Below, in pieces: positions 40,179 to 62,995 of a stretch of DNA of 64,000 nt. The stretch comes from Candidatus Nanoarchaeia archaeon. GTDB taxonomy: Archaea > Nanobdellota > Nanobdellia > WJKC01. Within the stretch, counting starts at the first letter, position 1. Every line of letters starts with the position of its first letter. A model generated the notes under the pieces. That model did not search any database and was not told the DNA's origin. It was given only the letters and a program-made list of their open reading frames with translations. The position numbers and the translations under genes were made by a program. The stretch lies in contig JBAZFG010000002.1 of the NCBI GenBank assembly GCA_041653515.1, positions 125,632 through 189,631 of the forward strand. The letters are read 5' to 3'.

Positions 40179-40339
40179 GCCCCCGCAGTTTGGAATAAAC
40201 TTTTTTCAATAAGCAGGGGGATCAGGAAATGCCTAAAACTGAGGGGGATGTGCCCCCGCGGTTTGGAATAAACTTTTTTCAATAAGCAGGGGGATCAGGA
40301 AATGCCTAAAACTGAGGGGGATGTGCCCCCGCGGTTTGG
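40179..40339. repeat. tandem direct repeat, 73-bp unit x 2.2, GC-rich hairpin element
   Basis: Units 40179-40251 and 40252-40324 differ at one position (a/g); a third partial unit 40325-40339 ends at the aglB stop codon; the reverse complement matches the elements at 57371 and 62941. Confidence 0.85.
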
Positions 40340-42958
40340 TTACCAGGCAGGACTGCCGTTATCAACCCATGGCATCATTGCAGTATAATTAATGTGATAA
40401 ATATTAATGTTGGTTGGGTCGTATTGTGATATTAATCCTCTTATGTTTAGTGAGTTACTTGAGTAGACTAATTCAAAACCAGGTATTGTTTCGTTCAATA
40501 AGTATAAGTGAGTCATGAAACGATCATTTAAGTCTGATGGGATGTGAATTAAGCCTCCTTCAATGAATTCAATACAAGAGTCAATGCCGTTAGTCTCATT
40601 AAAGTAAGTGCAGCCATTACCATAATCACAAACGCAATTGTATGGGTGAAGCGTGTTACTGCCCGTAGCTAAGTTATAAACTACTGCTTGTGGCTGACCA
40701 AAAGATTGGTCTTCAGCCATTGGTATTAAAACGTTTACTATGTAACTCTCGCCTTTAGGGAATAATACACCATCAATGATTGTGTCAGCGCCAACATAAC
40801 CTGGTGAGGCTAAGTAATTGAAAACTAGTAGTGTGCTGAATTGTTCAGGATTATACAAGTTATTATCCACTTGCTGGCTGTAAGTGTAAGGTGCGTAATA
40901 ACCTGGCCTGCCACCAATATTAGCCATCTGAACATATTTTAGTATATCATCATCCATGACTAATAAATAATTAGGCCTATTGCCTGTTTCATTATTCTTG
41001 AAGTAATCAAGTGAGTCATAAACCTCTGTCATGTTAAAGCCGCTAAACATTTGGCCGCCAATAACTTCATCCCATACTACTTGGAAGTTACCCCCATCAA
41101 CTGTTGTTGCCCGCTCGCCCATGGTTTGAACCCAGTAACCATAATCCCACCAATGAGTGAATACAGCGTTAGTGTCAGTGTTATTCCTAACCCAACTCAT
41201 TGATTCGCCCCAATCATTAGTGAAGCTTGGAATCATTGTTGAAGCATCTTCAACAATAACATAGTAACTCCATATTACTAATAGTATTGCGACTGCGTAA
41301 ATAGCTGTTGAGTAAACTTTATCACTTGTTATTTTGCTGATTAAATTATTTATCCGCTCAATAGCGTAAGCAGCTAATAACACGAATATTGGGGTGCTAG
41401 CAAAGACAATTCTTATTGCGCCCCTAGTTGCAATAACACTTAAAGCAAACCATAAGATGATTATTAGTTTACTTGGCGTTAACTCACCCCACTTACTGCT
41501 CTTATGGAATTTAATGTAAAATAATATTACTGTTAAAGCCAATAATGGCAGTGTTAGTAAGTAAGTGTTCTCAAAGAATAAATTAATTGCTTCATAACCG
41601 TTTAAGTTAACGAATTTGCTAAACATGAAGAATAAGATGAACACAGTAAACATTATCACTACTGATGTGGCTTTCTTGCCAAACTTACCTAATACTTCTT
41701 GAACTAATAATGCTCCACCAATAACAAATAATGGCACAAACCATTGAAGCCTATGCCACCAGTCAACCCCGTTAGGGTCATAGAACCATGGGGCTTGGTT
41801 TTCAGTAACTGAGACGCAGAAAGCACAAGTGCCAAAAGGGTTTAGTATTGTATCAAGAGCGCCTTGTAGTTTGGCGCCAACATCAAATAATCCAGTTAAT
41901 TGCATTACTGGCAGACCAACCATTATTAATACTGCCATCATTATTACGAAATAAAAATTATCAGGCCACTTCTTGTTCTTGATTAAGTTACTGATGAATA
42001 AATCATAAACAATTTTTAATCCAAGCACTAACGCTGTGATAGTTGGTATTAAGAACATATCAATCATGATTAAACCAAAACCATTATAGCGCAGGGTCAT
42101 TGTAGCGTTCATTAATATTATTGGGATGAACCACGCAAAGTAAGTGATTACGTTTTTATTGCTTAATTTACCCATTAAAGCAAGGAATAGGAATGCTAAG
42201 CCAATGCTGAAGAATAAGAAGTTAGCCCCACCCCAAGTCAGGCTTGATAAGCCAGCTAATACGCCTGATATTAACCCGTAAATTAATGCTTGTTTAGTCT
42301 TATTTGCCCTAATTGATTTGACTAATGCATAAATCATGCTAAACCAAAAGACTGTTGCAAGCGCTTCCTTATCACTAAACCCTGCCATGGTCCTGAATAA
42401 ATATGATGGGATTAATGATAAAAACGCTGTGGCAATTAACGCTGTTTTCTTGTTGAATATTTCTTTAGTCATTAAGAAAAAGAATATCATGCTTATTACA
42501 AACGCAACAACTGGGTAAATCATTGAATAACTCATTAGTTCGCCGCCAAATAATGGGTGAAATATTGTGTATAATCCTGCAACAAAGTAAGACACTAATT
42601 GGTGCTCCTTGAAAGTGCTAAAACCTTCTGGAAAATAACGAAATGAATCCATTTCAGGCAGGGTGCCCTGCTCCACTAGTGTTTCAGTGTAGCGGTAAAA
42701 AACATACGGGTCAAGACCAAGCAATAAACCATTGTATAATGGTATGCTTAGCATCCTAACCCAAGCCCCAACTAATATAATACTAATTAATGCTGCGTAT
42801 AATATTATCTTCTTATTTTCTTTGAGGAATTTTACTGCTTCGCCAAAATTAAGTTCATCCTCATCAGTGGTTGCTGGTTTTTTCTCTTTCTTATCACTGC
42901 TAAACCAGCCTTTAATCTTTCGCCCTATCTCCCCGAAATCAATTTCTTCATCACTCAA
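40340..42958 (-). CDS. aglB: archaeal oligosaccharyltransferase AglB (STT3 family)
   Basis: 'FTHWWDYGYWVQTMG' canonical WWDYG motif; N-terminal 'GLDPYVFYRY' first-loop DxD-type motif; ~13 TM helices plus a C-terminal soluble domain. Confidence 0.85.
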   Translation of the reverse strand: MSDEEIDFGEIGRKIKGWFSSDKKEKKPATTDEDELNFGEAVKFLKENKKIILYAALISIILVGAWVRMLSIPLYNGLLLGLDPYVFYRYTETLVEQGTLPEMDSFRYFPEGFSTFKEHQLVSYFVAGLYTIFHPLFGGELMSYSMIYPVVAFVISMIFFFLMTKEIFNKKTALIATAFLSLIPSYLFRTMAGFSDKEALATVFWFSMIYALVKSIRANKTKQALIYGLISGVLAGLSSLTWGGANFLFFSIGLAFLFLALMGKLSNKNVITYFAWFIPIILMNATMTLRYNGFGLIMIDMFLIPTITALVLGLKIVYDLFISNLIKNKKWPDNFYFVIMMAVLIMVGLPVMQLTGLFDVGAKLQGALDTILNPFGTCAFCVSVTENQAPWFYDPNGVDWWHRLQWFVPLFVIGGALLVQEVLGKFGKKATSVVIMFTVFILFFMFSKFVNLNGYEAINLFFENTYLLTLPLLALTVILFYIKFHKSSKWGELTPSKLIIILWFALSVIATRGAIRIVFASTPIFVLLAAYAIERINNLISKITSDKVYSTAIYAVAILLVIWSYYVIVEDASTMIPSFTNDWGESMSWVRNNTDTNAVFTHWWDYGYWVQTMGERATTVDGGNFQVVWDEVIGGQMFSGFNMTEVYDSLDYFKNNETGNRPNYLLVMDDDILKYVQMANIGGRPGYYAPYTYSQQVDNNLYNPEQFSTLLVFNYLASPGYVGADTIIDGVLFPKGESYIVNVLIPMAEDQSFGQPQAVVYNLATGSNTLHPYNCVCDYGNGCTYFNETNGIDSCIEFIEGGLIHIPSDLNDRFMTHLYLLNETIPGFELVYSSNSLNIRGLISQYDPTNINIYHINYTAMMPWVDNGSPAW

Positions 42959-42965
42959 TTTAACA

Positions 42966-43784
42966 TCATACTCCTAATGAAATGTAAACCTCTAATAATC
43001 CCCCGATTATTAATACAATGCTTGCAAGCACTATTAAATCAATGGAATCAAGTAATACCTCTTTAAATTTATTACTCTTAGGGTCATGCCTTATTACTGC
43101 TGCACTAATAATGCCTCCTGCAATGCCTGCGAGGAAGTAAGCAATTAATTCTGGCAGACCATGAACTAAGTAACGACCAAACCCTAGTGGCACTGCCTGA
43201 AAATAAGAAGACCAATTACTAATATTGGTTTTAATTGCGTTGCCAATAGCGACGCCGAGCACGCTTGAGTTCCACGTGATAATAAATATTGCGCCCGCCC
43301 CGTATAATAAGCTAAATATTAAGCAGAAGAGTAATACTTTGAAGTTATTGGCTAATATTATTTTTAATAAATCTGTTTGCACTGCATTGCCTTGAATGGC
43401 TGATGAGTTAATGCTTCTGATAGTGTTTATTTGCTCTGAGAATATTTTTGCGTTAAGGCTGTCAGGCATTATGACATACCATGTGGTGAATGTTATTAAT
43501 AATCCCATTGACATGAAGAATATTACGCCGAGCACATCTTTATGATTGCCAATTAAGGGGTATTGTTTTTTGGTGAAATCCTCTGATTCCTCTCGTTTTA
43601 GCACGTTAACTAGTAATGGCACGCCAGCCATTGTTGTAAGAAAAACCATACTTAATGACGGGTCTGATGGGAATAACCACATGCTGACTACTAAGCCAAG
43701 GCTCGCGTATATCACGCCTAATATTGTCATTTTCCAAGGCTTGGCTCTAACTTCTTTACTGCTTAATATTGACTCAAAAACCAT
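42966..43784 (-). CDS. integral membrane protein (SpoIIM/DUF95-like)
   Basis: 272 aa, about six hydrophobic helices; no catalytic motif recognised. Confidence 0.35.
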   Translation of the reverse strand: MVFESILSSKEVRAKPWKMTILGVIYASLGLVVSMWLFPSDPSLSMVFLTTMAGVPLLVNVLKREESEDFTKKQYPLIGNHKDVLGVIFFMSMGLLITFTTWYVIMPDSLNAKIFSEQINTIRSINSSAIQGNAVQTDLLKIILANNFKVLLFCLIFSLLYGAGAIFIITWNSSVLGVAIGNAIKTNISNWSSYFQAVPLGFGRYLVHGLPELIAYFLAGIAGGIISAAVIRHDPKSNKFKEVLLDSIDLIVLASIVLIIGGLLEVYISLGV

Positions 43785-44838
43785 TAATCACCTCTAATTT
43801 TCGGCTCCTGCCTTGGAATCCTTCGCCAGTATCAGTTGCTTTGATTAGTCCTTGTTTTCTTAATCGGTTAATGTAGCGCCTAAAACTCCTAATGCTTAAT
43901 TCGCCATGTATCTCGCGGTAATTCTTGTAAGCATCGCCGCTAATAATATTAGGGTTCTCTTTTATGATGTTAATTATTTTTTCTTCATGGTCGCTTAATT
44001 CCTGAGGTAAGTTAATAGTTATTGTCTTAATTGCTTCTTCAACGTGCTTGACTGTTATTTTCCTGCTAGCATCCCGCTCAGCCCTGCGTCCAGCTTCTAA
44101 TAATAAGTTGATTGCTTTCCTAACATCTGTGCCTGAATTAATACTTACTTCATGGACTACTCCTTCGCTTACAACACTTGGGTGGAACGCTTGTTTGGCC
44201 CTGCGTTCAATAATGTTTTTCATCTCGCGCGTAGTGTATGGCTTGAACTCCATGTTATTAAGGTTTAATCGCGACATTAATCGTGGTTCAATATAATTCT
44301 TGTACTTAGGGTTGTTAGTGACCATTAAGATGCATACCCGTTCTAAGTTTAGTAATGAGTATATTATGTCAAGGTCTTTTATTTTATCCACTTCATCAAG
44401 GCAGACTACTGCTCCTTTTTCCCTTAGTTTTCTCATCGCGTTATTAAGTATTTCTTCGGTCGGCACACCTTTAGGGGGATAGAGCATGCCTAATCGTCGC
44501 GCTATCTCTAAAGCTATTGTGTGAGTGGTCTGGCTTTCCCAGCAATTAATGAATACTGGTACAATATCGCTGGTCTCTTTTAATTCGTTAAAAATATATT
44601 TGATGCTCGCTGTCTTGCCAAGCCCAGGCATGCCGTGGATGAATACATTACTCCCTAAGCGATTTTGTAATAATGGTTTGATGAAACTAGCTATTTCTTT
44701 AATCTCATTGTCCCGTTCAGGCATTTCTTCTGGTTGGAATTTATAATCGAGAATAGTTTCATCCTTGAACAAAGTCTCGTTGTCCATCAGGATATCTTTG
44801 AATAAGCCCCCCATAATAGTAAGGGACACGCTAATCAT
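43774..44838 (-). CDS. orc1: Orc1/Cdc6 replication initiator (AAA+)
   Basis: Walker A 'GMPGLGKTAS'; 'VCLDEVD' Walker B; C-terminal winged-helix region. Confidence 0.85.
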   Translation of the reverse strand: MISVSLTIMGGLFKDILMDNETLFKDETILDYKFQPEEMPERDNEIKEIASFIKPLLQNRLGSNVFIHGMPGLGKTASIKYIFNELKETSDIVPVFINCWESQTTHTIALEIARRLGMLYPPKGVPTEEILNNAMRKLREKGAVVCLDEVDKIKDLDIIYSLLNLERVCILMVTNNPKYKNYIEPRLMSRLNLNNMEFKPYTTREMKNIIERRAKQAFHPSVVSEGVVHEVSINSGTDVRKAINLLLEAGRRAERDASRKITVKHVEEAIKTITINLPQELSDHEEKIINIIKENPNIISGDAYKNYREIHGELSIRSFRRYINRLRKQGLIKATDTGEGFQGRSRKLEVINGF

Positions 44839-44892
44839 TATTAAAGGTTCCGATAATAAGTCTTAAATAATTGTTAAGCACAATAATTAATC

Positions 44893-45384
44893 ATGGCAAA
44901 GGAGTTTTCAGATAATTTAGGTGATAAAGCTAATGAGGATTATCAGCAAACACTTGAGATTATTTTTAGCTCAATTCTTGACCCATTGTTTGAGTTACAA
45001 AACGATGTTTTTGAGTTAAAGGGTTATGTGACTAATGTGCTGCCTGATTATATTAAAAAGTTAGTTACAACTGGTGTTGAAGAATTATACGTTAAAATAA
45101 TTGCATTCTTTAATGAGCGTGACCGAAAAATAAATGATTATTTTGACCAACAAAGAGGTCAGATTAATCAGCCAACTAATATTCCTGTTAATAGTTATGT
45201 TGTAGGTAACACTGCTATTGGTTTTAAGACGCTTGATGATTTAACCCCGCCACCGCCGCCTAAGAAGCTTGATCAATCATTTGAGAGTTCTATGTGTGAA
45301 GTAAAAAATAAACAGGATACTGTTCGTAAAAATATTATTGATGAATTAAAAGAATTGTTTACTAAGCGCGGCCCAATTGATTAA
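44893..45384 (+). CDS. hypothetical protein
   Basis: 163-aa ORF, acidic, 'PPPPPKK' linker; AT-rich. Confidence 0.4.
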   Translation: MAKEFSDNLGDKANEDYQQTLEIIFSSILDPLFELQNDVFELKGYVTNVLPDYIKKLVTTGVEELYVKIIAFFNERDRKINDYFDQQRGQINQPTNIPVNSYVVGNTAIGFKTLDDLTPPPPPKKLDQSFESSMCEVKNKQDTVRKNIIDELKELFTKRGPID

Positions 45385-45848
45385 TTTCTTAGTATATTAA
45401 CTGCTTTGATTGCTTTAATGAGCATTTTCTTGTTGACTGGTTTATTGCTTTTTAATGCGTTTTGTTGTTGTTTCCTATGCAATTCATTTATTGAGTAGCT
45501 TAGTATTACTTCAACACTTTTATCATAGTAACCGCTGGTTTTTAAGTAATAAGTGCCGTTTCCGAAATAAGTTATTCTAATATTATACTCATCGGTTTTA
45601 CTAAGCCCTACTGCTGTGAATGAATTCTTTGCTGGTGTCTTAATTGATTGATTAATCATCTGTTCTAACTGGCTGATTGATAACTCTTTTTGGTTAAGTG
45701 TTTTAAGGCTTTTTTCTTTAGCACTGATTAATTCAAGTGTTAACCCGCTTAGCCAGCCAATTGCAACGTATGTTTTTCCTGTTATTGCTTTGCTCATTTC
45801 TTGAGCAACGAATAACTCATCATCAAATTTTAGTGATGTGTACATCAT
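45381..45848 (-). CDS. hypothetical protein
   Basis: 155-aa ORF with no recognisable motif. Confidence 0.4.
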   Translation of the reverse strand: MMYTSLKFDDELFVAQEMSKAITGKTYVAIGWLSGLTLELISAKEKSLKTLNQKELSISQLEQMINQSIKTPAKNSFTAVGLSKTDEYNIRITYFGNGTYYLKTSGYYDKSVEVILSYSINELHRKQQQNALKSNKPVNKKMLIKAIKAVNILRN

Positions 45849-45877
45849 TAATTGTTTCTTTTTATTATCTTATATAC

Positions 45878-46393
45878 TTAATTGGTTGATTCAAATAAGT
45901 TGTTGAGTGTTTTGTAATCAATTATTAGGCTTTTTTTTAGCTGAAATTTTGTTGTGTTAATTAATTGTTCTTGGTTTAAGTCTTTGATTTTGTTTACTTT
46001 GATGATTACATCATCCTCGTTCTTGATTATTACTGAGTCAATAGTATTGTATTGGGTAAACGTATTAGTTCTTAACTCAAATTGTTTGTTCTTCTTAACT
46101 ATTTTAAGGAAACTAAAATAACCTTCATCAAATAAAGGTTCTTTCATTGAATCATTAATTATGTTGTTAAACTCATTTTTGTTAATAAATTTATATGGGT
46201 TAATTATTATTAATCTAACCTCATCTAATCTTAACATACCTATTAATTGCTCTCTTCTTCTTCCCATTAATGCTGCTAAATTGATTGGTCCATGGTTGAA
46301 ATCATACCAGTAGTTAGTAATTAATTTATGGTCATTGCTCTCTCTAATCTTATGATTAACATCTGGTTTTGGTTTGTATTGGCCATTATTCAT
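45878..46393 (-). CDS. hypothetical protein
   Basis: 171-aa ORF with no recognisable motif. Confidence 0.4.
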   Translation of the reverse strand: MNNGQYKPKPDVNHKIRESNDHKLITNYWYDFNHGPINLAALMGRRREQLIGMLRLDEVRLIIINPYKFINKNEFNNIINDSMKEPLFDEGYFSFLKIVKKNKQFELRTNTFTQYNTIDSVIIKNEDDVIIKVNKIKDLNQEQLINTTKFQLKKSLIIDYKTLNNLFESTN

Positions 46394-46444
46394 ATTCTTT
46401 ATTACCCATAATCTTTTTTATAACAATTACTGTCCTACAATCCC

Positions 46445-47440
46445 ATGGGTGTTAATATTCGCGATTTAGTTACGCCAGTTAGGACAGACCTTAAGTCTTT
46501 ATCTGGCTGTAAGATTGGGGTTGACGCTTTTAACTGGTTATACCAGTTTATCTCAACTATCCGCCAGCCTGACGGCACGCCGTTAATGGATTCTAAAGGC
46601 AGGGTGACTAGTCATTTAACTGGCTTATTTTATCGGGTGTTTAAGTTGCTTGAGTATGGGATTAAGCCTTGTTTTGTTTTTGACGGCAAAGCGCCTGATT
46701 TTAAGTTAGTGACTGCTGAGCGTGTTAAGCGTAAGGTTGAGGCTAAGCGTAAGTATGCGCAAGCGTTGGCTGAGGAGGATTTTGTTCGCGCCCGCAGTCT
46801 GGCAGGTCAGACGAGCCGATTAACTGGTGAAATGGTATCTCAGGCTAAGGAGTTAATCATTGCTATGGGCTTGCCTGTTATTCAGGCGCCAAGCGAGGGC
46901 GAGGCCCAGATTGCTTATATGACTAGTCAGGGTGATTTTTGGGCTAGTGCTAGTCAGGATTATGATACTTTGTTGTTTGGTAGTCCGCGGTTGGTTAAGA
47001 ATATTAATATTGTTGGCAAGAAGCGCTTGCCTCGTGGTGGTTTTGTTGAGGTTGTGCCTGAAGTGATTGAATTAAAATCATTACTTGAATCACTTGGCTT
47101 GTCCCGAGAGCAATTAATTCAGCTTGGCGTATTAGTTGGTACTGATTTTAATCCTGGCGGGGTTAAGGGTGTTGGGCCTAAGACTGCGCTTAAATTAGTC
47201 CGCGCTCATACTAATCCTTTTACGCAAGTTGATTGGGTATCCAGTATTAAACCTGAGTTTATTATTGATTTTTTCCTTCATCCACCAGTGATTAAGGATT
47301 ACAAACTGGTTTGGTCTGCGCCTGATTTTGATAAAGTTAAGTCAATCTTAACTTCATTTGAGTTTAGTGAGACAAGGATTGAGAATGTTTTTAAGAAATT
47401 CCGTGAGTCAGGTCAATCACAATTAAATAAGTGGTTTTAG
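46445..47440 (+). CDS. fen1: flap endonuclease FEN-1
   Basis: 'MGVNIRDLV...CKIGVDAFNWLYQF...KPCFVFDGKAP' N-domain; 'GTDFNPGGVKGVGPKTALKL' H3TH motif. Confidence 0.85.
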   Translation: MGVNIRDLVTPVRTDLKSLSGCKIGVDAFNWLYQFISTIRQPDGTPLMDSKGRVTSHLTGLFYRVFKLLEYGIKPCFVFDGKAPDFKLVTAERVKRKVEAKRKYAQALAEEDFVRARSLAGQTSRLTGEMVSQAKELIIAMGLPVIQAPSEGEAQIAYMTSQGDFWASASQDYDTLLFGSPRLVKNINIVGKKRLPRGGFVEVVPEVIELKSLLESLGLSREQLIQLGVLVGTDFNPGGVKGVGPKTALKLVRAHTNPFTQVDWVSSIKPEFIIDFFLHPPVIKDYKLVWSAPDFDKVKSILTSFEFSETRIENVFKKFRESGQSQLNKWF

Positions 47441-48112
47441 TTATTTTCTTTTTTTCTTGAAAAAACTCTTAGCAGGTCCTTCCTTGATCGCCCAGCCAAA
47501 ACCAATGCCAATAGCAAGGCTAATACCAAGACTAACCCCTAATACAATATACTTAAAAGTGTCTTCGAGTAAGCTTGTGTTAGTTAGGCCGAATTTTGGT
47601 AAAGCCATTACCACTGCAAAGAATAATATAATGCCATAAACAATTTCTGCTATTGTCTCGTTGAATGGTATTGCGTTGCTCTTGATTTTCTTGCGCACGA
47701 AGTCAGCAAATACCATTGCAATAATTATTATTCCTGCCCCAACGCTTACTTCTGGTATTGCTCTTATTATGCCGTCAAATAATTCTGCCAAGAAAGTTAG
47801 GCTGGTCCTGACAGCTGCTTCTTTGAGGAATATAATGATAATGTAATACTTAACTATTAAGCTGACCGCATTAGTTACTGATATATTATAGAGTGATTCT
47901 TTTAGTTTCATTTTTTTTAGCCATTCATCAATTTGTGAGGCAGTCATTAATTTCTTGATTATTACTTCACTTATTTTTGCCACAACCCAACCGAGTAGTA
48001 ATATTAGTAATGCAGTGATTATTTTTGGCAAAGCTAGTATTAATGCTGTGGCTGATTCTTGTAATGCTTGAGCTGGTAATTCAACAATATTTAGTAAAGT
48101 ATCATTAACCAT
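47441..48112 (-). CDS. integral membrane protein
   Basis: Multi-TM; the likely start is the internal 'MVNDTLLNIV' rather than the upstream extension that overlaps the next gene. Confidence 0.4.
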   Translation of the reverse strand: MVNDTLLNIVELPAQALQESATALILALPKIITALLILLLGWVVAKISEVIIKKLMTASQIDEWLKKMKLKESLYNISVTNAVSLIVKYYIIIIFLKEAAVRTSLTFLAELFDGIIRAIPEVSVGAGIIIIAMVFADFVRKKIKSNAIPFNETIAEIVYGIILFFAVVMALPKFGLTNTSLLEDTFKYIVLGVSLGISLAIGIGFGWAIKEGPAKSFFKKKRK

Positions 48113-48170
48113 TATTCTTGTCTTAATGACCGTTAATTTTAAAACGTTTACTAATACTATTATTATTTGT

Positions 48171-48443
48171 ATGGAGCTTGATTCACAGTTAGAAAAAGAG
48201 TACGCGCGCACTGTTTTCGCGTTTAAAGAGTTATCAGTGACTGACTCACAGCAAGCGCGTGAATTATATGAGCTGGTTAAATCTTATTATGATGACGCGC
48301 TTCACTTTTACAATAAGGGCTTGAAATTAGAATCTTTTGAGTTATTCGCTTATGTTTGGGGTTTGCTTGACGCTGGCGCCAGGCTTGGTTTGTTTGACCC
48401 TGGTGCTGCGCGCCAGCACTATAAGATAGAGCAACATATTTAA
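48171..48443 (+). CDS. conserved hypothetical protein
   Basis: ORF from 'MELDSQLEKEY...'. Confidence 0.3.
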   Translation: MELDSQLEKEYARTVFAFKELSVTDSQQARELYELVKSYYDDALHFYNKGLKLESFELFAYVWGLLDAGARLGLFDPGAARQHYKIEQHI

Positions 48444-48469
48444 ACCATTAATCTTTCTTTTTTCTTTTA

Positions 48470-48634
48470 ATGGTAAAGCATTGTGTTTCTTGTGGTAAGG
48501 ATGTTAGCACTATCAATAATAGTGTTGTTTTTGATTGCCCTAAGTGCGGTAAGGGTAAGATTGTTCGTTGTGGTAAGTGTCGCAGGTTAGGGATTAGTTA
48601 CTCGTGTGTTGAATGCGGGTTTAAGGGGTTGTGA
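48470..48634 (+). CDS. Zn-ribbon protein (COG2888-like) upstream of aEF-1beta
   Basis: 54 aa, 'CVSCG..18..CPKCG..7..CGKCRR..9..CVECG' (four CxxC pairs); the stop overlaps the start of the next gene. Confidence 0.45.
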   Translation: MVKHCVSCGKDVSTINNSVVFDCPKCGKGKIVRCGKCRRLGISYSCVECGFKGL

Positions 48635-49274: not shown

Positions 49275-49294
49275 AATCCTTATATGCGCATCCT

Positions 49295-50197: not shown

Positions 50198-50204
50198 TAA
50201 TTCA

Positions 50205-50217
50205 TTTTTTTTTTTTT
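50205..50217 (+). terminator. 13-nt oligo-T tract (archaeal-type terminator), followed by a TATA-like 'TTTATAAGG'
   Basis: T13 run just 3' of the R15P isomerase stop; ~45 nt upstream of the AMP phosphorylase start. Confidence 0.4.
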
Positions 50218-53534: not shown

Positions 53535-53556
53535 ACTCCTTAAATAAATTCTTATT

Positions 53557-55597: not shown

Positions 55598-55621
55598 ATA
55601 ATTGATTTAGCATTTTTTTGT

Positions 55622-56797
55622 TTAAGTAATTAGTCTTTCCCTGATTTTAGTGACTTCGTTTCTTAGTTTTTCTTCATTAATGCCCAATAAGTTCTTGCCA
55701 TCACGAACAATTTCTTTTCCTTTTAAGTAAACGCTTTTGATTGCGTTCTTATTCATTATTTTAGCTACAAATTCACTAACTGTCTTAAATGGTTTTAATT
55801 GGCTCATATCAATTAGTGAGAAACTAGCTTCGCTTTCTGGCCCGAATGGCTCATGAGTCATAGTGTATGCTTGATTAATTGTTACGCCAGTGAGCTCGTA
55901 GGACTCCCATGCTTCATTTAATATTGATGATGATGGGTTCCAAGCGTAACTGTCAGTGCCTAGTAACATTTTAACATTATTATTAAGCATTACTTTGTTT
56001 GGCGGCGCGTTATCACTAATCGCTTTATTGCTCGTCGGGCAGTGCATTACTTGAACGTTATTTTCAGCTAACATTAATATGTCCTTGCTGTCAGCGTAAG
56101 TGCAATGAGCTAACCTTAAGTCATGCTCAAGCATTCCAAGACTATTCAAGTAATCAATTGTTCTCATGCCAGTTAATTTCTTTATATGCTTAACATCCTC
56201 AAGTGTCTCGCATGCGTGCATGTGAATTGGCAGGTCATTTTCCTGTGCAAACAATAATCCTTCTTTTATTAATTGTGGTGTGCATTCATACTCGTTAGCT
56301 AAGCCTAACATTATTTTATTGCCGTACTTCTTTTTTAATTCAAGCGTTTGGTTGAATTGTTTGCTAATACTGCTTTTCTCTTTATGAGCATCCTTGACTG
56401 CAAGGCAAGCAGTGTAACCTAACTTGCATTTATTAATTGCTTTAATTACTGGCTCAGGGTTCATGTCCATGGTGTCAACATGAGTCACGCCTTCCTTGAT
56501 TGATTCAAGGCAGGCTAACAGTGATGCTTTGTAAACATCAATTGTTTTGCGCCTGTCATGAACCTTAAAACCAATATTATCAAAATACTCATATTTTTTC
56601 AAGCCAAGCGCAGCCCCACTCACTGCTCGACTACCAAGGTGAACGTGAGCGTTAGTTAATCCTGGCAGTAAGAATAAGCCAGTGCAATCAACGCCTTTAC
56701 TCAGGTTGTTCTTAATGTAATGAACTGATTGGTCAAAGAATATGTCTGTCTTGATTAACCGACCACCTTTCAGAATAGTGATATTATTGAGTATCAT
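55622..56797 (-). CDS. amidohydrolase (MTA/SAH-deaminase or cytosine/guanine-deaminase-like)
   Basis: 'LPGLTNAHVHL' HxH metal site; 'HMHACE' and 'GTDSYAWN' later motifs. Confidence 0.65.
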   Translation of the reverse strand: MILNNITILKGGRLIKTDIFFDQSVHYIKNNLSKGVDCTGLFLLPGLTNAHVHLGSRAVSGAALGLKKYEYFDNIGFKVHDRRKTIDVYKASLLACLESIKEGVTHVDTMDMNPEPVIKAINKCKLGYTACLAVKDAHKEKSSISKQFNQTLELKKKYGNKIMLGLANEYECTPQLIKEGLLFAQENDLPIHMHACETLEDVKHIKKLTGMRTIDYLNSLGMLEHDLRLAHCTYADSKDILMLAENNVQVMHCPTSNKAISDNAPPNKVMLNNNVKMLLGTDSYAWNPSSSILNEAWESYELTGVTINQAYTMTHEPFGPESEASFSLIDMSQLKPFKTVSEFVAKIMNKNAIKSVYLKGKEIVRDGKNLLGINEEKLRNEVTKIRERLIT

Positions 56798-56823
56798 TGA
56801 TTAATCTTTAAGTATTTTAATGC

Positions 56824-57300
56824 TTAAATAATATATTTCTCAAACAAGTTGCCTGGTCCTTTACTTGTTTTATAAAGCGTGTGTTTTTTTAGCCAATTAA
56901 TTAAGTTCATAGTTTTCTTATTATTAGTTAAGTGCAAGCCCCATGTTGATGGGTCACAAATGTATTCTTCTTCTTGATAAGTAAATTTATTCCAAACGTG
57001 ACTTAATGGTTCATTAAAGAACTCATTTGTAAGTAAGTAATTTCTGCCTTCAATGATTTTATTGTAAGCTTTACCCATTATCATAATTGTTTTAAATTGT
57101 TTATTCTCTGATAAGACGTTGTTTAGGAATTGTGCGAAGTGATTGCATAAACCTCCTTTATTTATGAATTCATTAGTGGTGGTTTCCCAATTATTTGGCG
57201 CGCAATAAGGGATATTAGCAATCGTTTCTTCAAGAAATAATTCTAATTCCTTTATGTTATTTATTTTTTTATGATAAGTGTTGTCAATTATATCATTCAT
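56824..57300 (-). CDS. transglutaminase-like cysteine peptidase domain protein
   Basis: Putative Cys-His-Asp triad in order: 'GGLCNHFAQF', 'SHVWNKF', 'ICDPSTW'. Confidence 0.4.
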   Translation of the reverse strand: MNDIIDNTYHKKINNIKELELFLEETIANIPYCAPNNWETTTNEFINKGGLCNHFAQFLNNVLSENKQFKTIMIMGKAYNKIIEGRNYLLTNEFFNEPLSHVWNKFTYQEEEYICDPSTWGLHLTNNKKTMNLINWLKKHTLYKTSKGPGNLFEKYII

Positions 57301-57336
57301 GTTAAATTAACTTTTTTTTAGTATTTTTAAAGTTTT

Positions 57337-57488
57337 TTAGAAATCACTGAGTTTTTTCTGCTTAGTCCCTAACCGCAGGGAGGGGTGACCCCTCCCTTCA
57401 GTTTTAGGGTAATCCTGATTCCCACCCCCCTACGATTGTAATTATGCCAGAGACATGTTAGAAATCACTGAGTTTTTTCTGCTTAGTC
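57337..57488. repeat. GC-rich hairpin element (57371-57430) bracketed by a perfect 31-bp direct repeat (57337-57367 / 57458-57488)
   Basis: 'ttagaaatcactgagttttttctgcttagtc' occurs twice; the second copy is the last 10 codons plus stop of nucS; between them lies 'aaccgcagggaggggtgacccctcccttcagttttagggtaatcctgattcccacc'. Confidence 0.8.
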
Positions 57489-58210
57489 TTATCAACTATG
57501 TTCCTGTTTGGTGGTTCTACTTGGCAGAACTTAAAGCTCCAGTCATGGAGCATTTGTTCAGCGTTCTTAGTGATGCCTGGCGCTGCGATGTAACCAATGA
57601 CTTTGTCAATTCCTTTAGCTGCCTTGATTCTCTCAACGTAGCGCCTTAGTTGTTGGACCGCGCTAAGCCCGGCAGTCACTCGCTTACACTCAATAATTAT
57701 TAATGCTCCTTCACCATCATGGCCCATCACGTCAATAAAACCATATTTTGTTTGTTCTTCAAGGCTGACTGGCCTAAAGTCAATGCTAATAATATGTGGG
57801 TGCTCATAAATCATGCGCGCCATGTCAGCTTCACTGCCCATAATCATTACTTCTTCATCATCGCTTAGTTGGCCTGAGATTAGTAAGTCAATGCTGGTTA
57901 TTTTAATGACCATTTGTTCTCTTGGGTTGATTGATTCAGCAGTGATGAATAATGAGTCGCCAGCTTCAACCCTGATGCTCGCGCCTTCTTTTATCCAGTT
58001 AACTGGGTTCCTGCCTGTTGGTTTGTGAACTAATAGTGTTTTGTCTGTTTTGATGGTGACTGCCCTGCCGCCCCGCTCGAGCTTTGAGTAAGCCCTGCCT
58101 TCATACTTAACCTCGCACTCGCAGTAAAGTGTGATTAACTCGTTTCGCTTGAGTGCTTGGTCTAATACGTTCTTGGTTGTATCAAAATCAGGTTTAACAT
58201 AATTGCTCAT
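57458..58210 (-). CDS. nucS: endonuclease NucS/EndoMS
   Basis: C-terminal RecB-like nuclease motif 'GFIDVMGHDGEGALIIIECKR'; N-terminal dimerisation/ssDNA-binding-like region. Confidence 0.7.
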   Translation of the reverse strand: MSNYVKPDFDTTKNVLDQALKRNELITLYCECEVKYEGRAYSKLERGGRAVTIKTDKTLLVHKPTGRNPVNWIKEGASIRVEAGDSLFITAESINPREQMVIKITSIDLLISGQLSDDEEVMIMGSEADMARMIYEHPHIISIDFRPVSLEEQTKYGFIDVMGHDGEGALIIIECKRVTAGLSAVQQLRRYVERIKAAKGIDKVIGYIAAPGITKNAEQMLHDWSFKFCQVEPPNRNIVDKTKQKKLSDF

Positions 58211-58263
58211 CTAATTCTTTATCTCGATACACATATAAATTGATTTTGTTATCTTTATTATTC

Positions 58264-58647
58264 ATGGAAGTTATTGTTGACATTTTTGATCCTAGCAAAC
58301 AGGAGTTCATTATTGGTGACCGTAGATTACCAAGCTACTTTGTTGGTAATGTAATTGGTCATTTAAAGGGTTATAAATTGTTAGGGGATGATAGTGTCCA
58401 GCAGATGCTTCCGTTACTTAATGAAATTGAATTAAATATGTATAAAACGCTTGATGATAAAACTACTCAATTAAGATTCTTGGCTTCTAAGCTGGTTGAG
58501 AAATTAACTTTTTTTGGCTCATATGACGAGCGAGTTATTATCTTAGAGGATTTCATTAACTCTGAATGTGATATGTATGTTAAGAAATTAAGGATTGATG
58601 ACCAGACTAAGAAAGAGTTAAAGCGCTTAATGGCTCTTACTCGATAA
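58264..58647 (+). CDS. hypothetical protein
   Basis: ORF taken from 'MEVIVDIF'; no motif recognised. Confidence 0.3.
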   Translation: MEVIVDIFDPSKQEFIIGDRRLPSYFVGNVIGHLKGYKLLGDDSVQQMLPLLNEIELNMYKTLDDKTTQLRFLASKLVEKLTFFGSYDERVIILEDFINSECDMYVKKLRIDDQTKKELKRLMALTR

Positions 58648-61456
58648 GTATTCCTGGTTTGCATGGCATTGCTTTCGGGTTATCTGCTTTGACTACATCA
58701 ACTTCTGTGTTATACTCTTGTTCAAGGAATTTGATTGCTTCGTTTAGTGATTGGTACTCACCATTCCTGTCTGGCGCGCTTAATGGCACGCGGCTTGGGT
58801 TCCTGATTAATGACTGGATGATGCCTGTCGCGTCCTTGGCGTGAGCTTTGACTGAAGCGTTCTTTAAGGCATTAGTAATTAATTCTTTTAAGTCATGCTT
58901 GTTCTTTGACTTAACCACTGATTTGTATAAGTCATACTTCCATTGGTCAGCGATGAATAATGTTATCTTTTTTGGTTTTGTTTTTATTATGCTTAATAAA
59001 CCATTAATGTCCTTGATTGTGTTCATTATTATTGATTCGTTCTGCTCAATTGATTGGTTAATCATTGATTCATTGATTTTTGGGAATCGGGCTAGTGAGA
59101 CAAACCCTTTGTTAATTTTGCTCCAAGCCTCCTCGCAGATGTGGGGTATTAATGGCTCGAGTGCTATCAGCCAGTCAGCTAGGAAAGTCCTGATTACACT
59201 ATTAAATTGTTGCGCGCTCACTCTTTTCTTGTAGTAGTTAAGCTCGTTCATGAACTCAAAGAAAATGTTAATTGCGTAAGGCCTAATCATGATATTACAT
59301 CCCTGCTCGTAAGCTTCTTTTATTCTTGAGTAAAAACGGCTGGTAATCCACTTGTCGATGCTGGTTAATTTCTTGGCTGGCAGCGCTTTACTTGCTGTCA
59401 GCACTAGATTAGCAAAATTAGTTATTTTTGTTTTGACGCTGGCAACCTCGTTCTCGCGCCAGTCAACTACTGAGTCAATGTCGCTTGAGCTTAATAAGAA
59501 CATTCTTAGTAAGTCAGCGCTGTACTTTTCAGCTACTTCAGCTAATGGTATAACGTTGCCTTTGCTCTTACTCATCTTAACCCCTTCGCGGATGACCATT
59601 TCGTTGAAACTTATTTCTTTTGGCCAGTACTTTTTGGGGAATATCTTGGTGTGGTGGAATAAGAAGAATGTTAGGTGGTTGCTGATGTGTGCTGGCGCAG
59701 TGTGGCGGTGGTCAAGTGGGTACCAATAAGTGAAATCTTCACGCATCTCACGCGCCCATTTAACTTTAAACTCACCTTTACCTAGGAATACATAATCAAA
59801 TAATTCAGGGGTTAATTGTTCTGGTTTTATTTTCTCGCGGTGAATAATGTTAATGATTGTGTAAAATGCCATGTAAATCGTTGAGTCGCTTAAGCTTTCA
59901 ATAACCCACTTGTCATCATAAGGCAGTTTTGTGCCTAAGCCTCTTTTGCGCGCGCAAGGTCTTTTCTCAAGCCAGTCAACCGTGTCAATGAATGACTTGC
60001 GGTACTTGTCAGGTATTATTGTCATATCATTAATTAATCTTCTAGTCTTGTCTTTCCATTCTTTGCTTGTGTAATCAAGGAACCATTGATCGTTAAGCAC
60101 TGCCACTATTACCTTGCCAGTGCAACGGCACTCAGCTTTGCGGCTGGTCTCGTAGAATGTGAAAGCGTCGCCTTGGCTTATTAGTTTGTTCCTGACACGG
60201 TCTTTAATTTCATTTATCTTGAGTCCTTTGAATTCAGCGCACTTTTCATTAAGCACTCCTTTGTAGAATTCATCTTTGTAAACCCTCTTGGTTGCTTGTT
60301 CTATTAGTTCCTTGTTGCGTTGGTTTTTAACGCCTAATTTGTTAATCATTTCAACTGCAGGTTCATTGCTGTAACCCTCAATGTTAATGATTGTTATTGG
60401 CTTAATTGACTTGATTTCCTTACTGTCAAGCCCGTAATCAGTTATGCCCTTGCTATCATTTTGCAAGTCTCTTAATGCTGCGTAATCAAACGGTGCGTGG
60501 GCTGGCACTGAGTAAACAATGCCTGTGGCCACGTCTGGGTCAACGAACTGACCTGGAAGTATTGGTACTTCAGTTCCTAATGGGGTGGTGACGTGTTTGC
60601 CTATTAGCTCTGTGCCAGCTAGTTCCCTTGTTTTCTTTAATCCTGTTTGCTGGTATTTTAATTTGTTGAATGCTTCAACGCTTATGATTAAGTTATTATT
60701 AGTCTCAACGTACAATGATTCAGGGTTAACCCATAAGTTAGTAATGCCATAAATTGTTTCAGGCCTTAGTGTACCTGCTACTAATTGTTTGCTGCCTAAA
60801 TCGAATTTGATTGCAGTGAACTCATTAATGCTTACTTTATCAGCGTCACCATCCTTAATATCATCCTCGCCAACAGCGTTGTCACAGTTAACACAGAAAT
60901 TAATTGGGTAACTACCCTGGGTTAATGCTTTGCCTTGTTTTAGTTTTTTAAACTGCCATTCAATAAATTTATTGTACTCTTTGTCGCCAGTGGTGAATTG
61001 TCTTGTCCAATCAACGCTGACCCCAATACTCTCAAAGTCTTGTCTGATAACGCTGGCGAAGTGCTTGGCAACGTTCATTGGTTCCTTGAATGACTCAATT
61101 ATCTTCTTGACTTTACTTTCATCTTTTTCTCTTAAGCGGACGTAATTAGTGAATAACTCGATGTAATTCTTATCACCTTTCCTTATGCGGTCGCTGATAG
61201 CTAATATTGGCGTGCCTGAGATGTGATAAGCCATGGGCCATAAGACATTATAACCTTGCTTTCGCTTGAAGCGCGCAATGAAGTCGCCGATACTGTAAGT
61301 CCTGCCGTGGCCAATATGGTAAGGGCCACTGGTATATGGGTATGGTACTGTGAAGAAATACTTCTTGCCTGTTTTTTTGGGCTCAAAGATTTTATCCTTA
61401 ACCCATTGCTTCTGCCACTTACGCTCTATTTTAGATAAATCCATCTTGTTAATCAC
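58637..61456 (-). CDS. leuS: leucyl-tRNA synthetase (archaeal type)
   Basis: 'PYPYTSGPYHIGHGRTY' HIGH; 'KMSKSKGNV' KMSKS; 939 aa with a CP1 editing-domain insertion. Confidence 0.9.
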   Translation of the reverse strand: MINKMDLSKIERKWQKQWVKDKIFEPKKTGKKYFFTVPYPYTSGPYHIGHGRTYSIGDFIARFKRKQGYNVLWPMAYHISGTPILAISDRIRKGDKNYIELFTNYVRLREKDESKVKKIIESFKEPMNVAKHFASVIRQDFESIGVSVDWTRQFTTGDKEYNKFIEWQFKKLKQGKALTQGSYPINFCVNCDNAVGEDDIKDGDADKVSINEFTAIKFDLGSKQLVAGTLRPETIYGITNLWVNPESLYVETNNNLIISVEAFNKLKYQQTGLKKTRELAGTELIGKHVTTPLGTEVPILPGQFVDPDVATGIVYSVPAHAPFDYAALRDLQNDSKGITDYGLDSKEIKSIKPITIINIEGYSNEPAVEMINKLGVKNQRNKELIEQATKRVYKDEFYKGVLNEKCAEFKGLKINEIKDRVRNKLISQGDAFTFYETSRKAECRCTGKVIVAVLNDQWFLDYTSKEWKDKTRRLINDMTIIPDKYRKSFIDTVDWLEKRPCARKRGLGTKLPYDDKWVIESLSDSTIYMAFYTIINIIHREKIKPEQLTPELFDYVFLGKGEFKVKWAREMREDFTYWYPLDHRHTAPAHISNHLTFFLFHHTKIFPKKYWPKEISFNEMVIREGVKMSKSKGNVIPLAEVAEKYSADLLRMFLLSSSDIDSVVDWRENEVASVKTKITNFANLVLTASKALPAKKLTSIDKWITSRFYSRIKEAYEQGCNIMIRPYAINIFFEFMNELNYYKKRVSAQQFNSVIRTFLADWLIALEPLIPHICEEAWSKINKGFVSLARFPKINESMINQSIEQNESIIMNTIKDINGLLSIIKTKPKKITLFIADQWKYDLYKSVVKSKNKHDLKELITNALKNASVKAHAKDATGIIQSLIRNPSRVPLSAPDRNGEYQSLNEAIKFLEQEYNTEVDVVKADNPKAMPCKPGILIE

Positions 61457-62748: not shown

Positions 62749-62791
62749 AAGCAAGCCTTAAAAAGTAATTAATTCTTTTCTAAATATTAGT

Positions 62792-62935
62792 GGGCCCGTA
62801 GCGCAGTTTGGATAGCGCGACAGGCTTCTACACTCGACGCTTCGCGTCTCGTTCCGTCCTTCGGACGGCCGCTCGCTTAAAACGAGCGGGGGTGAGGATA
62901 CCTGTAGGTCGTGGGTTCAAATCCCTCCGGGCTCG
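62792..62935 (+). tRNA. tRNA-Arg(TCT) with 69-nt intron at canonical position 37/38
   Basis: Acceptor GGGCCCG/CGGGCTC, D-stem GCGC/GCGC, anticodon stem ACAGG/CCTGT separated by 'CTTCTA'+intron+'A'; T-loop TTCAAAT; one T-stem mismatch; the intron carries two hairpins (ccgtcc-ttc-ggacgg; gctcg-cttaaaa-cgagc). Confidence 0.7.
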
Positions 62936-62940
62936 CACGA

Positions 62941-62995
62941 AAACCGCAGGGAGGGGAGACCCCTCCCTTCAGTTCATCTCCTGATTCCCACCTCC
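62941..62995 (+). repeat. GC-rich hairpin element, copy immediately 3' of tRNA-Arg
   Basis: 'aaccgcagggaggggagacccctcccttcagtt...cctgattcccacc' is nearly identical to 57371-57430; 9-bp stem agggagggg/cccctccct. Confidence 0.8.

What the first reader, a model, noticed from the sequence alone, without database searches (positions are those of the whole stretch)
40179..62995. Family-level view: conserved stem with compensatory variation suggests a structured RNA or terminator module
Across four copies the stem varies from 9 bp (agggagggg/cccctccct) to 5-6 bp (ggggg/ccccc) but pairing is preserved. The downstream 'tcagtt(ttagg)...cctgat(t)ccc' box is conserved. For the aglB and tRNA copies the element is in sense orientation directly after the stop or 3' end. 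This is consistent with a 3'-UTR terminator/stabiliser hairpin or a small ncRNA, as an alternative to the mobile-element reading.
Basis: partly seen in the sequence, partly recalled or inferred. Interest (0 to 1): 0.5.

Follow-up and report, generated by a model that had tools for sequence, protein, structure and literature searches.

The report
Mobile triplex-hairpin element of DPANN archaea
The four repeats belong to a small, structured insertion element that spreads in tiny DPANN archaea, duplicating the ends of the genes it lands beside; in related archaea the same module lies inside tRNA introns, so it may show how such introns arise.

Summary
The window holds four full copies and one 16-nt partial copy of a ~55-nt core: AACCGC, a G/C hairpin, TCAGTT, a spacer, CCTGAT, then a C-run. 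The hairpin shows compensatory change: 37 different stems in 107 distinct copies, all paired.

The terminator reading does not hold. Orientation relative to neighbouring genes is mixed and there is no oligo-T tract. Most loci are flanked by 16-51-nt direct repeats of local sequence.

These repeats start or end at a gene terminus: a start codon, a stop codon or a tRNA end. The gene therefore stays whole.

The genome has 12 copies at 9 loci, yet only 1 of 400 other genomes sampled from its phylum has any. The same core occurs in at least 115 stretches, nearly all from DPANN genomes of several phyla.

Five of the nine T-loop cases have a textbook bulge-helix-bulge (BHB) splice motif.

The C-run after CCTGAT covaries as the mirror image of the stem, which is the signature of an intramolecular triple helix.

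Best reading: a non-autonomous mobile element of a kind not yet described. Its insertion mechanism is unresolved.

The parts
40267..40339 (-). Element copy 1 of the tandem array (73-nt unit of core plus tail). It starts immediately after the AglB stop codon (40340-42).
40194..40266 (-). Element copy 2 of the tandem array.
   Evidence: The unitig depth of the unit is about twice that of the flanks.
40178..40193 (-). Partial third copy: the first 16 nt of the element, ending in the hairpin loop. It lies 36 nt upstream of the GT4 gene start (40141).
57337..57367 (.). Left direct repeat (31 nt): a non-functional duplicate of the last 10 codons plus stop codon of NucS.
57368..57457 (+). Element, 90 nt. 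The core is 57371-57423, with the hairpin at 57377-57397 and the third strand from about 57419. The tail runs to 57457. It is antisense to both neighbouring genes.
57458..57488 (.). Right direct repeat (31 nt, identical to the left one): the functional 3' end of NucS (57458-58210, minus). The repeat begins exactly at the stop codon.
62792..62935 (+). tRNA-Arg(TCT) with a 69-nt canonical intron that is not related to the element.
62914..62938 (.). Left repeat: tRNA-Arg from the T-loop to its 3' end, plus 3 nt.
62939..63052 (+). Element, 114 nt (core 62942-62995), in sense after the tRNA.
63053..63077 (.). Decayed right repeat: 19 of 25 positions identical to the tRNA 3' end.
   Evidence: The best match was at most 17/25 in 5000 shuffles, and no random real window reached 19/25.

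Best explanation
The four copies belong to a family of small (about 52-200 nt), non-autonomous insertion elements found in DPANN archaea.

ANATOMY
- Shown: the left end is precise, (C)C(G/A)AACCGC.
- Shown: next comes a purine-rich arm R, a loop, and its Watson-Crick partner Y1.
- Shown: TCAGTT, a 4-14-nt spacer and CCTGA(T) follow.
- Shown: a second pyrimidine run, Y2, is the mirror image of Y1, that is, the parallel complement of R.
- Shown: the element ends in a tail that varies in sequence and length.
- Inferred: the single strand folds into a hairpin that is lengthened by AACCG pairing with CAGTT. This pairing includes a G-U wobble in the reverse-complement sense. The third strand then lies in the groove as an intramolecular triplex.

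BEHAVIOUR
- Shown: copies sit at gene boundaries and are flanked by a duplicate of the terminal 16-51 nt of the adjacent gene, so the gene stays intact.
- Shown: in all four start-codon loci the duplicated start opens a 34-37-codon reading frame across the element. That frame stops in ATGA or TAATG, overlapping the real start codon.
- Inferred: translation is passed on by termination-reinitiation. In the loci of this genome a Shine-Dalgarno-like run in the tail may help.
- Shown: in other DPANN genomes the same core, read on the other strand, fills BHB introns of tRNA genes.
- Inferred: the window's genome acquired the element horizontally, and it then multiplied to 12 copies.

MECHANISM (inferred, weakest step)
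- Insertion happens at the DNA level and creates the duplication.
- No reverse transcriptase, Cas1 or IS200-type transposase is involved.
- My best guess is a replication- or repair-linked template switch. The polymerase would enter a donor copy at a variable point in the tail and stop at the structured core.
- An unknown nuclease making cuts 16-51 nt apart is about equally likely.
- In tRNA genes, an insertion in the T-loop that duplicates the 3' part, followed by loss of the upstream duplicate, would turn the element into an obligate intron.
For: FAMILY AND COPY NUMBER
- 12 copies at 9 loci in this genome.
- At least 115 stretches in public genomes, nearly all DPANN (Micrarchaeota, Aenigmatarchaeota, Altiarchaeota, Woese-, Iain-, Nanoarchaeota).
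- Only 2 of 401 genomes from 281 genera of the organism's own phylum have it: the window's genome, and one other with a single copy.
- The 45-nt cores at two different loci on contig C4 are identical, while their flanks differ.

DIRECT REPEATS
- Perfect repeats of 21-37 nt, up to about 51 nt when mismatches are allowed, at 8 of 9 loci here and at about 30 loci elsewhere.
- The repeat edge lies 0-2 nt from a start codon at 4 loci.
- It lies -1 to +6 nt from the stop codon of a converging gene at 8 or more loci.
- It lies at tRNA 5' or 3' ends or terminator T-runs at 8 or more loci.
- 8 of 22 loci scored automatically for protein-gene ends, against 10% of random positions (P about 0.001).
- The genes involved are real and housekeeping: NucS, AlaRS, Kae1, an AAA kinase.

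TAIL
- Tails are homologous at two unrelated loci, so the tail belongs to the element.

READING-FRAME RELAY
- Units of 110, 107, 101 and 110 nt all equal 2 mod 3.
- All four frames are open and end on the real start codon.

STRUCTURE
- 37 stem variants, all paired.
- 4 compensatory pairs by RNAalifold.
- Y2 matches the parallel complement of R at 92.9% of positions. At non-G positions the match is 143/182, against a shuffled mean of 108 and a maximum of 121 in 1000 shuffles.
- The covariation score for four parallel pairs is 0.414 against 0.205 when shuffled (0 of 500 shuffles reach it), and it peaks at slide 0.
- The reverse-complement RNA folds better: -31.2 against -22.9 kcal/mol, z -2.8.

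INTRONS
- The element lies inside tRNA genes with intact exons at position 59/60 in 9 loci and at 37/38 in 2 loci.
- 5 of the 9 T-loop cases have the T-stem, a 4-bp helix and two 3-nt bulges. Cutting these restores a normal 7-nt T-loop.
- Rfam's tRNA model spans one such gene with the element as an insert.

NO LINKED ENZYME
- No RVT_1, Cas1 or Y1_Tnp match in the 97%-complete genome.
- No gene family recurs beside the element. The best is class I aminoacyl-tRNA synthetases at 8 of about 108 loci.
- No terminal inverted repeats.
Against: - No empty-site allele and no RNA data were found, so neither mobility nor transcription has been observed directly.
- About 60% of copies in other genomes show no detectable flanking repeat. 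Duplication is therefore not obligatory, or it decays.
- Junctions at protein-gene loci show little or no microhomology. This weakens the template-switch model.
- Nothing explains why one repeat edge falls on a gene terminus at stop-codon loci, where selection should not care.
- The triplex rests on covariation alone. Runs of C+*G-C (pyrimidine motif) need low pH, and purine-motif triplexes are poorly documented for RNA.
- The copies are phylogenetically related, so the shuffle tests overstate significance.
- Wobble and mismatch patterns in the stem do not settle the strand: 5 G-T pairs in one sense against about 7 in the other.
- The genome is a metagenome bin. However, unitigs cover repeat-element-repeat at even depth.
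Confidence: 0.6

Rival explanations
1. It is a cis-acting RNA hairpin at gene ends, acting as a terminator, a 3'-end stabiliser or a small ncRNA, kept by selection for that role. A hairpin works in either orientation, and a triple helix could protect a 3' end, as in ENE/MALAT1-type elements.
For: - 6 of 9 loci lie just downstream of a stop codon or tRNA end in one orientation or the other.
- The structure is conserved by covariation.
Against: - Three loci sit directly upstream of start codons, one inside an ATGA-overlapping operon.
- No oligo-T tract is present. From general knowledge, archaeal termination uses T-runs, not hairpins.
- Flanking duplications and tandem arrays are not explained by this role.
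- Only 2 of 401 genomes in the phylum have it, against many in other phyla.
- It lies inside tRNA introns, where it is removed.
Confidence: 0.1
2. The copies are scars (att-site remnants) left by integrative plasmids or viruses that use a tyrosine integrase and carry a copy of the target gene's end, as tRNA-integrating archaeal elements do. The conserved core would be the integrase-binding arm.
For: - The repeats run from the T-loop to the tRNA 3' end, like classical att sites.
- Read on the reverse-complement strand, the element's end (GCGGTTCG) resembles a T-arm.
- One Phage_integrase gene is present in the genome.
- PMC3293823 proposes integration as a route to tRNA disruption.
Against: - Each locus has a different repeat, and many are protein-gene starts or ends, so there is no single att specificity.
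- Whole elements are only 52-200 nt and no larger integrated form was seen.
- No integrase recurs nearby.
- There were 0 hits in 2.9 million viral contigs.
- The single recombinase gene lies on another contig and could be the ordinary XerA (not tested).
Confidence: 0.12
3. It is an RNA-level mobile intron. The excised, circularised BHB intron re-enters RNAs by reverse splicing or ligation, is reverse-transcribed, and recombines into the genome. The repeats would come from chimeric RNA ends.
For: - The element is a BHB intron in many tRNAs.
- One end is precise and the other is variable, resembling the 5' truncation of retroposed copies.
- Repeat edges fall at likely transcript ends: leaderless starts and tRNA terminator T-runs.
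Against: - No reverse transcriptase in a 97%-complete genome that shows recent copies.
- Stop-codon edges are not expected transcript ends.
- The element occurs in both orientations relative to the duplicated gene end.
Confidence: 0.08
4. It is a domesticated DNA structure: an H-DNA or cruciform site with a role in the chromosome, such as a replication or transcription barrier or a protein landing pad. Copies would arise by local duplication rather than true transposition.
For: - A mirror repeat combined with an inverted repeat is the classical H-DNA or triplex design.
- Tandem amplification is seen at three loci, and one array ends in the hairpin loop.
Against: - Nearly identical cores lie at unlinked loci with unrelated flanks.
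- The phylogenetic distribution is patchy.
- There is no regular spacing along the contigs.
Confidence: 0.08

Closest known systems
Archaeal bulge-helix-bulge (BHB) tRNA introns, including non-canonical T-loop introns and the 'intron transposition' seen in Thermoproteales
   Same: In other DPANN genomes the element lies between intact tRNA exons at 59/60 or 37/38. Five T-loop cases have a full helix / 3-nt bulge / 4-bp helix / 3-nt bulge motif.
   Different: - One conserved ~55-nt core is shared by introns of different tRNAs across phyla.
- The same core occurs outside tRNAs, flanked by duplications of gene ends.
- None of the window's own copies interrupts a tRNA.
MITEs and bacterial REP/BIME, Correia or ERIC-type intergenic repeats
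   Same: Small, multi-copy, non-coding, hairpin-forming, sited between genes, with no transposase of their own.
   Different: No terminal inverted repeats, no fixed-length target duplication, one variable end, a third covarying strand, and no RAYT or IS200-type gene in the genome.
IS1634/IS1549-type insertion sequences (long, variable direct repeats); recalled from memory
   Same: Target duplications of tens of bases with variable length.
   Different: Those are autonomous elements of more than 1.5 kb with inverted ends and a DDE transposase. Nothing of that kind is linked here.
Casposons and CRISPR spacer integration by Cas1
   Same: Insertion at tRNA or gene 3' ends with duplication of a 14-37-bp target. 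Repeated insertion at one site gives repeat-insert-repeat-insert-repeat arrays, as on contig C4 at about 64.5 kb and in L038.
   Different: No Cas1 in the genome, no inverted ends, and the duplicated sequence differs at every locus.
tRNA-targeting integrative elements with tyrosine integrases (pNOB8 or SSV type)
   Same: The repeats equal the tRNA segment from T-loop to 3' end, and the gene is restored after insertion.
   Different: The element is 10-100 times smaller, has many unrelated targets including protein-gene starts, and has no linked integrase.
Designed and natural intramolecular triplexes (single-strand R-loop-Y-loop-Y DNA, H-DNA, ENE/MALAT1-type RNA triple helices)
   Same: The strand order and mirror symmetry of R, Y1 and Y2 are exactly those of a single-strand triplex.
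   Different: The strands here are G/C-rich rather than U*A-U. The structure has not been shown physically and is not known as part of a mobile element or an archaeal intron.

Membership tests
Transcription terminator (intrinsic bacterial type or archaeal oligo-T type) | A run of T/U directly after the hairpin or at the 3' end of the gene | tested here: not met
   TCAGTT and a mixed spacer follow the hairpin in every copy.
Transcription terminator (intrinsic bacterial type or archaeal oligo-T type) | A consistent position downstream of genes, in sense | tested here: not met
   2 loci in sense after a gene end, 3 in sense upstream of a start codon, 4 antisense after a stop codon.
MITE | Terminal inverted repeats | tested here: not met
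   The first and last 14 nt of 24 precisely bounded elements show no complementarity.
MITE | Target-site duplication of fixed short length | tested here: not met
   Repeats range from 13 to about 51 nt, and about 60% of copies have none detectable.
MITE | Multi-copy, non-coding, dispersed | tested here: met
   12 copies at 9 loci on 4 contigs.
Archaeal BHB intron | Interrupts a gene whose exons join into an intact product | tested here: met
   Met for relatives' loci only: L017, L046, L049, L056, L060, L095, L103, L115, L118 (T-loop) and L042, L097 (37/38). The window's copies do not interrupt a gene.
Archaeal BHB intron | A helix / 3-nt bulge / 4-bp helix / 3-nt bulge motif at the splice sites | tested here: met
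   Full motif in 5 of 9 T-loop cases and 3 of 4 helix pairs in one more. The others are unclear. Not applicable to the window's copies.
Archaeal BHB intron | Splicing observed in RNA | not testable with these tools
   No RNA run is on record for this organism.
Any Rfam RNA family | A covariance-model match | tested here: not met
   Nothing at gathering score in the window, and nothing at E<=1 on 8 element-bearing loci except the tRNAs.
Retroelement (TPRT-type or group II) | Reverse transcriptase in the genome | tested here: not met
   No RVT_1 match. The genome is 97% complete.
Casposon / CRISPR-type integration | Cas1 integrase | tested here: not met
   No Cas1 match.
IS200/IS605-derived hairpin repeats (REP/RAYT type) | A Y1 HUH transposase in the genome | tested here: not met
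   No Y1_Tnp match.
Intramolecular triplex | A third strand that mirrors the Watson-Crick pyrimidine strand and covaries with the purine strand | tested here: met
   92.9% parallel complementarity. The permutation and slide controls support it.
Intramolecular triplex | Physical formation of base triples | not testable with these tools
   Needs melting, CD, NMR or chemical probing.

The most novel reading that the evidence does not exclude
A triplex-forming mobile module shared across DPANN phyla is the seed of archaeal tRNA introns. It inserts into a tRNA T-loop or anticodon loop, or near any gene end, and duplicates the terminal segment. This gives a redundant allele that needs no splicing. 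Loss of the upstream duplicate then fixes it as an obligate BHB intron. This would be a concrete, observable route of archaeal intron gain. It would also be the first natural mobile element whose conserved core is an intramolecular triple helix.
Probability: 0.3. Interest if true: 0.9.

Novelty: categorically new. Interest (0 to 1): 0.8.

Why it matters
How archaeal BHB introns arrive in tRNA genes is an open question. A 2026 census of Asgard tRNA introns concluded that "how they arrive remains open" (bioRxiv 10.64898/2026.10.13.758758).

Here one recognisable sequence module is found in three states:
- free-standing, with fresh duplications of gene ends;
- beside tRNAs whose T-loop-to-3'-end segment is duplicated;
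- as a T-loop or anticodon-loop intron with a BHB motif.

That makes the question directly testable by comparative genomics, and by experiment in the few cultured Micrarchaeota.

Three further points stand out.
- The three-strand covariation predicts a natural G/C-rich intramolecular triplex.
- Insertions that land within the first or last 10-17 codons of essential genes are tolerated because the gene end is duplicated.
- At start-codon loci, expression appears to be rescued by a reading frame that ends exactly on the real start codon. This would be a neat natural case of termination-reinitiation.

Tried and rejected
- RNA evidence: no RNA holder is listed for the window.
- Contigs of four DNA runs were laid on 40000-59999. 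They only showed unitigs breaking at the repeats, at even depth. No alternative allele appeared.
- An empty-site pattern for the NucS locus found nothing in metagenome contigs.
- The core pattern found nothing in viral contigs.
- Six literature searches, including one for the motif strings themselves, found no description of the element.
- Terminal inverted repeats: none.
- A closing helix between CCGC and a GCG(G) after the third strand is present in only a minority of copies, so I dropped it.
- A small AGG/CCU hairpin in the spacer, and the TCAG/CTGA helix proposed by RNAalifold, are invariant or non-covarying. TCAG/CTGA also competes with the AACCG/CAGTT pairing. Both are left open.
- A conserved peptide encoded by the core was rejected, because stem-length indels shift the frame and two loci read it in different frames.
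- A recurrent neighbouring enzyme was not found. Only aminoacyl-tRNA synthetases and HAD hydrolases recur, and weakly.
- Selection alone as the reason that repeat edges fall on gene termini works for start-codon loci but not for stop-codon or tRNA loci, so it was rejected as a full explanation.
- C/D-box or K-turn motifs were checked by eye and no UGAUGA box is present.
- ARAGORN in default mode missed the window's intron-containing tRNA. Rfam and ARAGORN with introns enabled found it.

Full report
**1. What is in the window**

- On the minus strand, two 73-nt units (40267-40339 and 40194-40266, 99% identical) and a 16-nt partial third unit (40178-40193) follow the stop codon of an STT3/AglB gene. 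They precede a GT4 glycosyltransferase gene.
- On the plus strand one copy has its core at 57371-57423.
- Another has its core at 62942-62995, a few bases after an intron-containing tRNA-Arg.

The stems are 9 bp and 5 bp as described. The 9-mer arm occurs 4 times against 0.08 expected.

**2. The family**

A profile search of the whole genome finds 12 copies at 9 loci on four contigs. The genome is 1.1 Mb, about 36% G+C and 97% complete.

A pattern for the core finds at least 115 stretches in the species-level genome collection. Nearly all are DPANN metagenome-assembled genomes: Micrarchaeota, Aenigmatarchaeota, Altiarchaeota, and Woese-, Iain- and Nanoarchaeota. None were found in viral contigs.

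Within the organism's own phylum the element is almost absent. Only 2 of 401 sampled genomes (281 genera) have it: the window's genome with 11 exact pattern matches, and one other with a single copy. That other genome's core is identical to that of a Woesearchaeota MAG (L041). I therefore infer that the window's genome is a Woesearchaeota-type DPANN archaeon.

A G+C-rich module in an A+T-rich genome, nearly confined to this one genome among those sampled from its phylum and with identical cores at unlinked loci, points to horizontal arrival followed by a local burst.

**3. Structure**

Across 107 distinct copies there are 37 different 5' stem arms of 5-11 bp, and all are complementary. RNAalifold on 72 copies gives 7 stem pairs, 4 of them with double-sided changes.

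A new feature is the pyrimidine run after CCTGA(T). It is not a copy of the 3' stem arm but its mirror image, which makes it the parallel complement of the purine arm. Examples: AGGGGGAGG goes with TCCCCCTCC, and GGGGGGA goes with CCCCCCT.

- Overall the match is 92.9%. At informative non-G positions it is 143/182, against a shuffled mean of 108 and a maximum of 121 in 1000 shuffles.
- Four such parallel pairs were counted on the alignment. Their covariation score is 0.414 against 0.205 (0 of 500 shuffles reach it), and the score peaks at zero slide.

Mirror symmetry cannot serve Watson-Crick pairing. It is the design of a single-strand triplex in the order purine arm, loop, pyrimidine arm, linker, pyrimidine arm.

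The two invariant boxes AACCG and CAGTT can pair and lengthen the hairpin. On the reverse-complement strand this pairing contains a G-U wobble, and that strand folds better (-31.2 against -22.9 kcal/mol).

No Rfam family matches the element. The triplex is an inference from covariation among related sequences and is not yet a demonstrated structure.

**4. Flanking duplications**

Eight of the nine loci in this genome, and about 30 elsewhere, are flanked by direct repeats of local sequence. The ninth, the array after AglB, repeats only the element's own first 16 nt.

- At 57337-57367 and 57458-57488 the 31-nt repeat is the last 10 codons plus stop codon of NucS, and it begins exactly at the stop codon.
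- After the tRNA, a decayed copy (19/25) of the T-loop-to-3'-end segment lies at 63053-63077. This match was never reached in 5000 shuffles.

Elsewhere in the genome the repeats are:

- the stop-codon ends of AlaRS and Kae1;
- the start-codon ends of an AAA kinase and two other ORFs.

In general one repeat edge lies within a few bases of a gene terminus. That terminus may be a start codon, the stop codon of a converging gene, a tRNA 5' end, or a tRNA 3' end or terminator T-run.

For minus-strand tRNAs the other repeat edge lies in the T-loop. There the element's end, read on the other strand as GCGGTTCG, resembles the T-arm.

The element's left end is precise and its right end is not. Near-identical cores carry tails of 8 and 16 nt, and no inverted ends exist. 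Tails are homologous at two unrelated loci, so they belong to the element.

**5. Consequences for genes**

Because the duplicated segment reaches the gene terminus, the gene next to the tail remains whole, even when the insertion point lies 7-17 codons inside an essential gene.

All four start-codon loci share one arrangement. The upstream duplicate of the start codon opens a 34-37-codon frame across the element. The frame ends in ATGA or TAATG on the real start codon. The unit lengths are 110, 107, 101 and 110 nt, all equal to 2 mod 3.

In the three loci of this genome the tail also carries GGAGG, GAGG or GAGGTG 6-9 nt before that start codon. I read this as selection for a termination-reinitiation relay.

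**6. The same module in tRNA introns**

In other DPANN genomes the core lies between intact tRNA exons, always in the reverse-complement sense.

- Nine cases are at T-loop position 59/60 and two at the canonical 37/38.
- Five T-loop cases show the T-stem, a 4-bp helix between the first four T-loop bases and the intron's 3' region, and two 3-nt bulges. Cutting two bases into each bulge restores a normal 7-nt T-loop.
- Other loci carry the 'redundant' state, with an intact tRNA, the element, and a second copy of the T-loop-to-3'-end segment (L038, L086, L090, L093, L122).

Loss of the first copy would convert this redundant state into an obligate intron. This is a hypothesis and was not observed.

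**7. How it moves**

No reverse transcriptase, Cas1 or IS200-type transposase is found in the genome. One tyrosine recombinase is present on another contig. No protein family recurs next to the element in about 108 loci.

The element is therefore non-autonomous, and a retro-mechanism is unlikely.

Three features fit a copy-choice insertion during replication or repair: the variable tail end, the precise structured end, and tandem arrays, one of which stops in the hairpin loop. Against this, junctions at protein genes lack microhomology, and the link to gene termini is unexplained. A nuclease making widely staggered cuts is about equally likely. I regard the mechanism as open.

**8.

The structure and the compensatory variation are confirmed. 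The terminator or stabiliser role is not supported, for these reasons:

- mixed orientation;
- three loci upstream of start codons;
- no T-tract;
- flanking duplications;
- patchy distribution;
- removal as an intron elsewhere.

Whether a free small RNA exists is untested.

**9. Limits**

- The genome is a metagenome bin. Unitigs from the probable source run do cover repeat-element-repeat at even depth.
- No RNA data and no empty alleles were found.
- The copies are related to one another, so the permutation statistics are generous.
- Intron function is inferred from exon integrity and BHB geometry only.

Noticed in passing
window 62792-62935: tRNA-Arg(TCT) with a 69-nt G+C-rich intron at the canonical position. 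ARAGORN in default mode missed it. The intron is unrelated to the element.
   Followed up: partly
window 7347-8443 and 10694-11789: Two stretches about 1.1 kb long and 3.3 kb apart share 73-82% identity (repeat families D1, D2, D11). They look like tandem paralogous genes.
   Followed up: no
genome contig C4 about 64457-64640 (locus L015): Three copies of the same 26-27-nt repeat (the Kae1 3' end). The first interval holds the element. The second holds a different 38-nt insert with similar ends. This suggests repeated insertion at one site, like a miniature array.
   Followed up: partly
L038 about 4150-4290; L028/L099 upstream of the core: Other G/C hairpin modules sit beside the element: a perfect long hairpin around GGGGGG/CCCCCC in L038, and an AACCGC-hairpin-ACCGGTT variant lacking the TCAGTT...CCTGAT box in L028/L099. 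A wider superfamily of such modules may exist.
   Followed up: no
L043 about 1330-1420: A minus-strand tRNA appears to have a T-loop intron of about 52 nt that lacks the element core, next to a duplication-flanked element copy at its 3' end.
   Followed up: no
genome contig C1 about 201375-201490 (locus L004): The native stop of the upstream gene and the start of the AAA-kinase gene overlap as ATGA. The insertion preserved this overlap in the left repeat and recreated it at the right repeat.
   Followed up: yes
genome contig C1 99529-99581: A degenerate element copy with a decayed repeat (26/32). The neighbouring 492-aa ORF now runs through the right repeat and tail and stops inside the element. 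This is a possible C-terminal extension produced by an old insertion.
   Followed up: partly
genome contig C10 28197-28688 (locus L131): The only tyrosine recombinase (Phage_integrase) match in the genome, within a 391-codon open frame. Whether it is the ordinary XerA or an integrase was not resolved.
   Followed up: no
L081, L096, L120: Three different Micrarchaeota MAGs share an element insertion with nearly the same flanking repeat. This points to vertical inheritance of an old copy, with its repeats decaying.
   Followed up: partly
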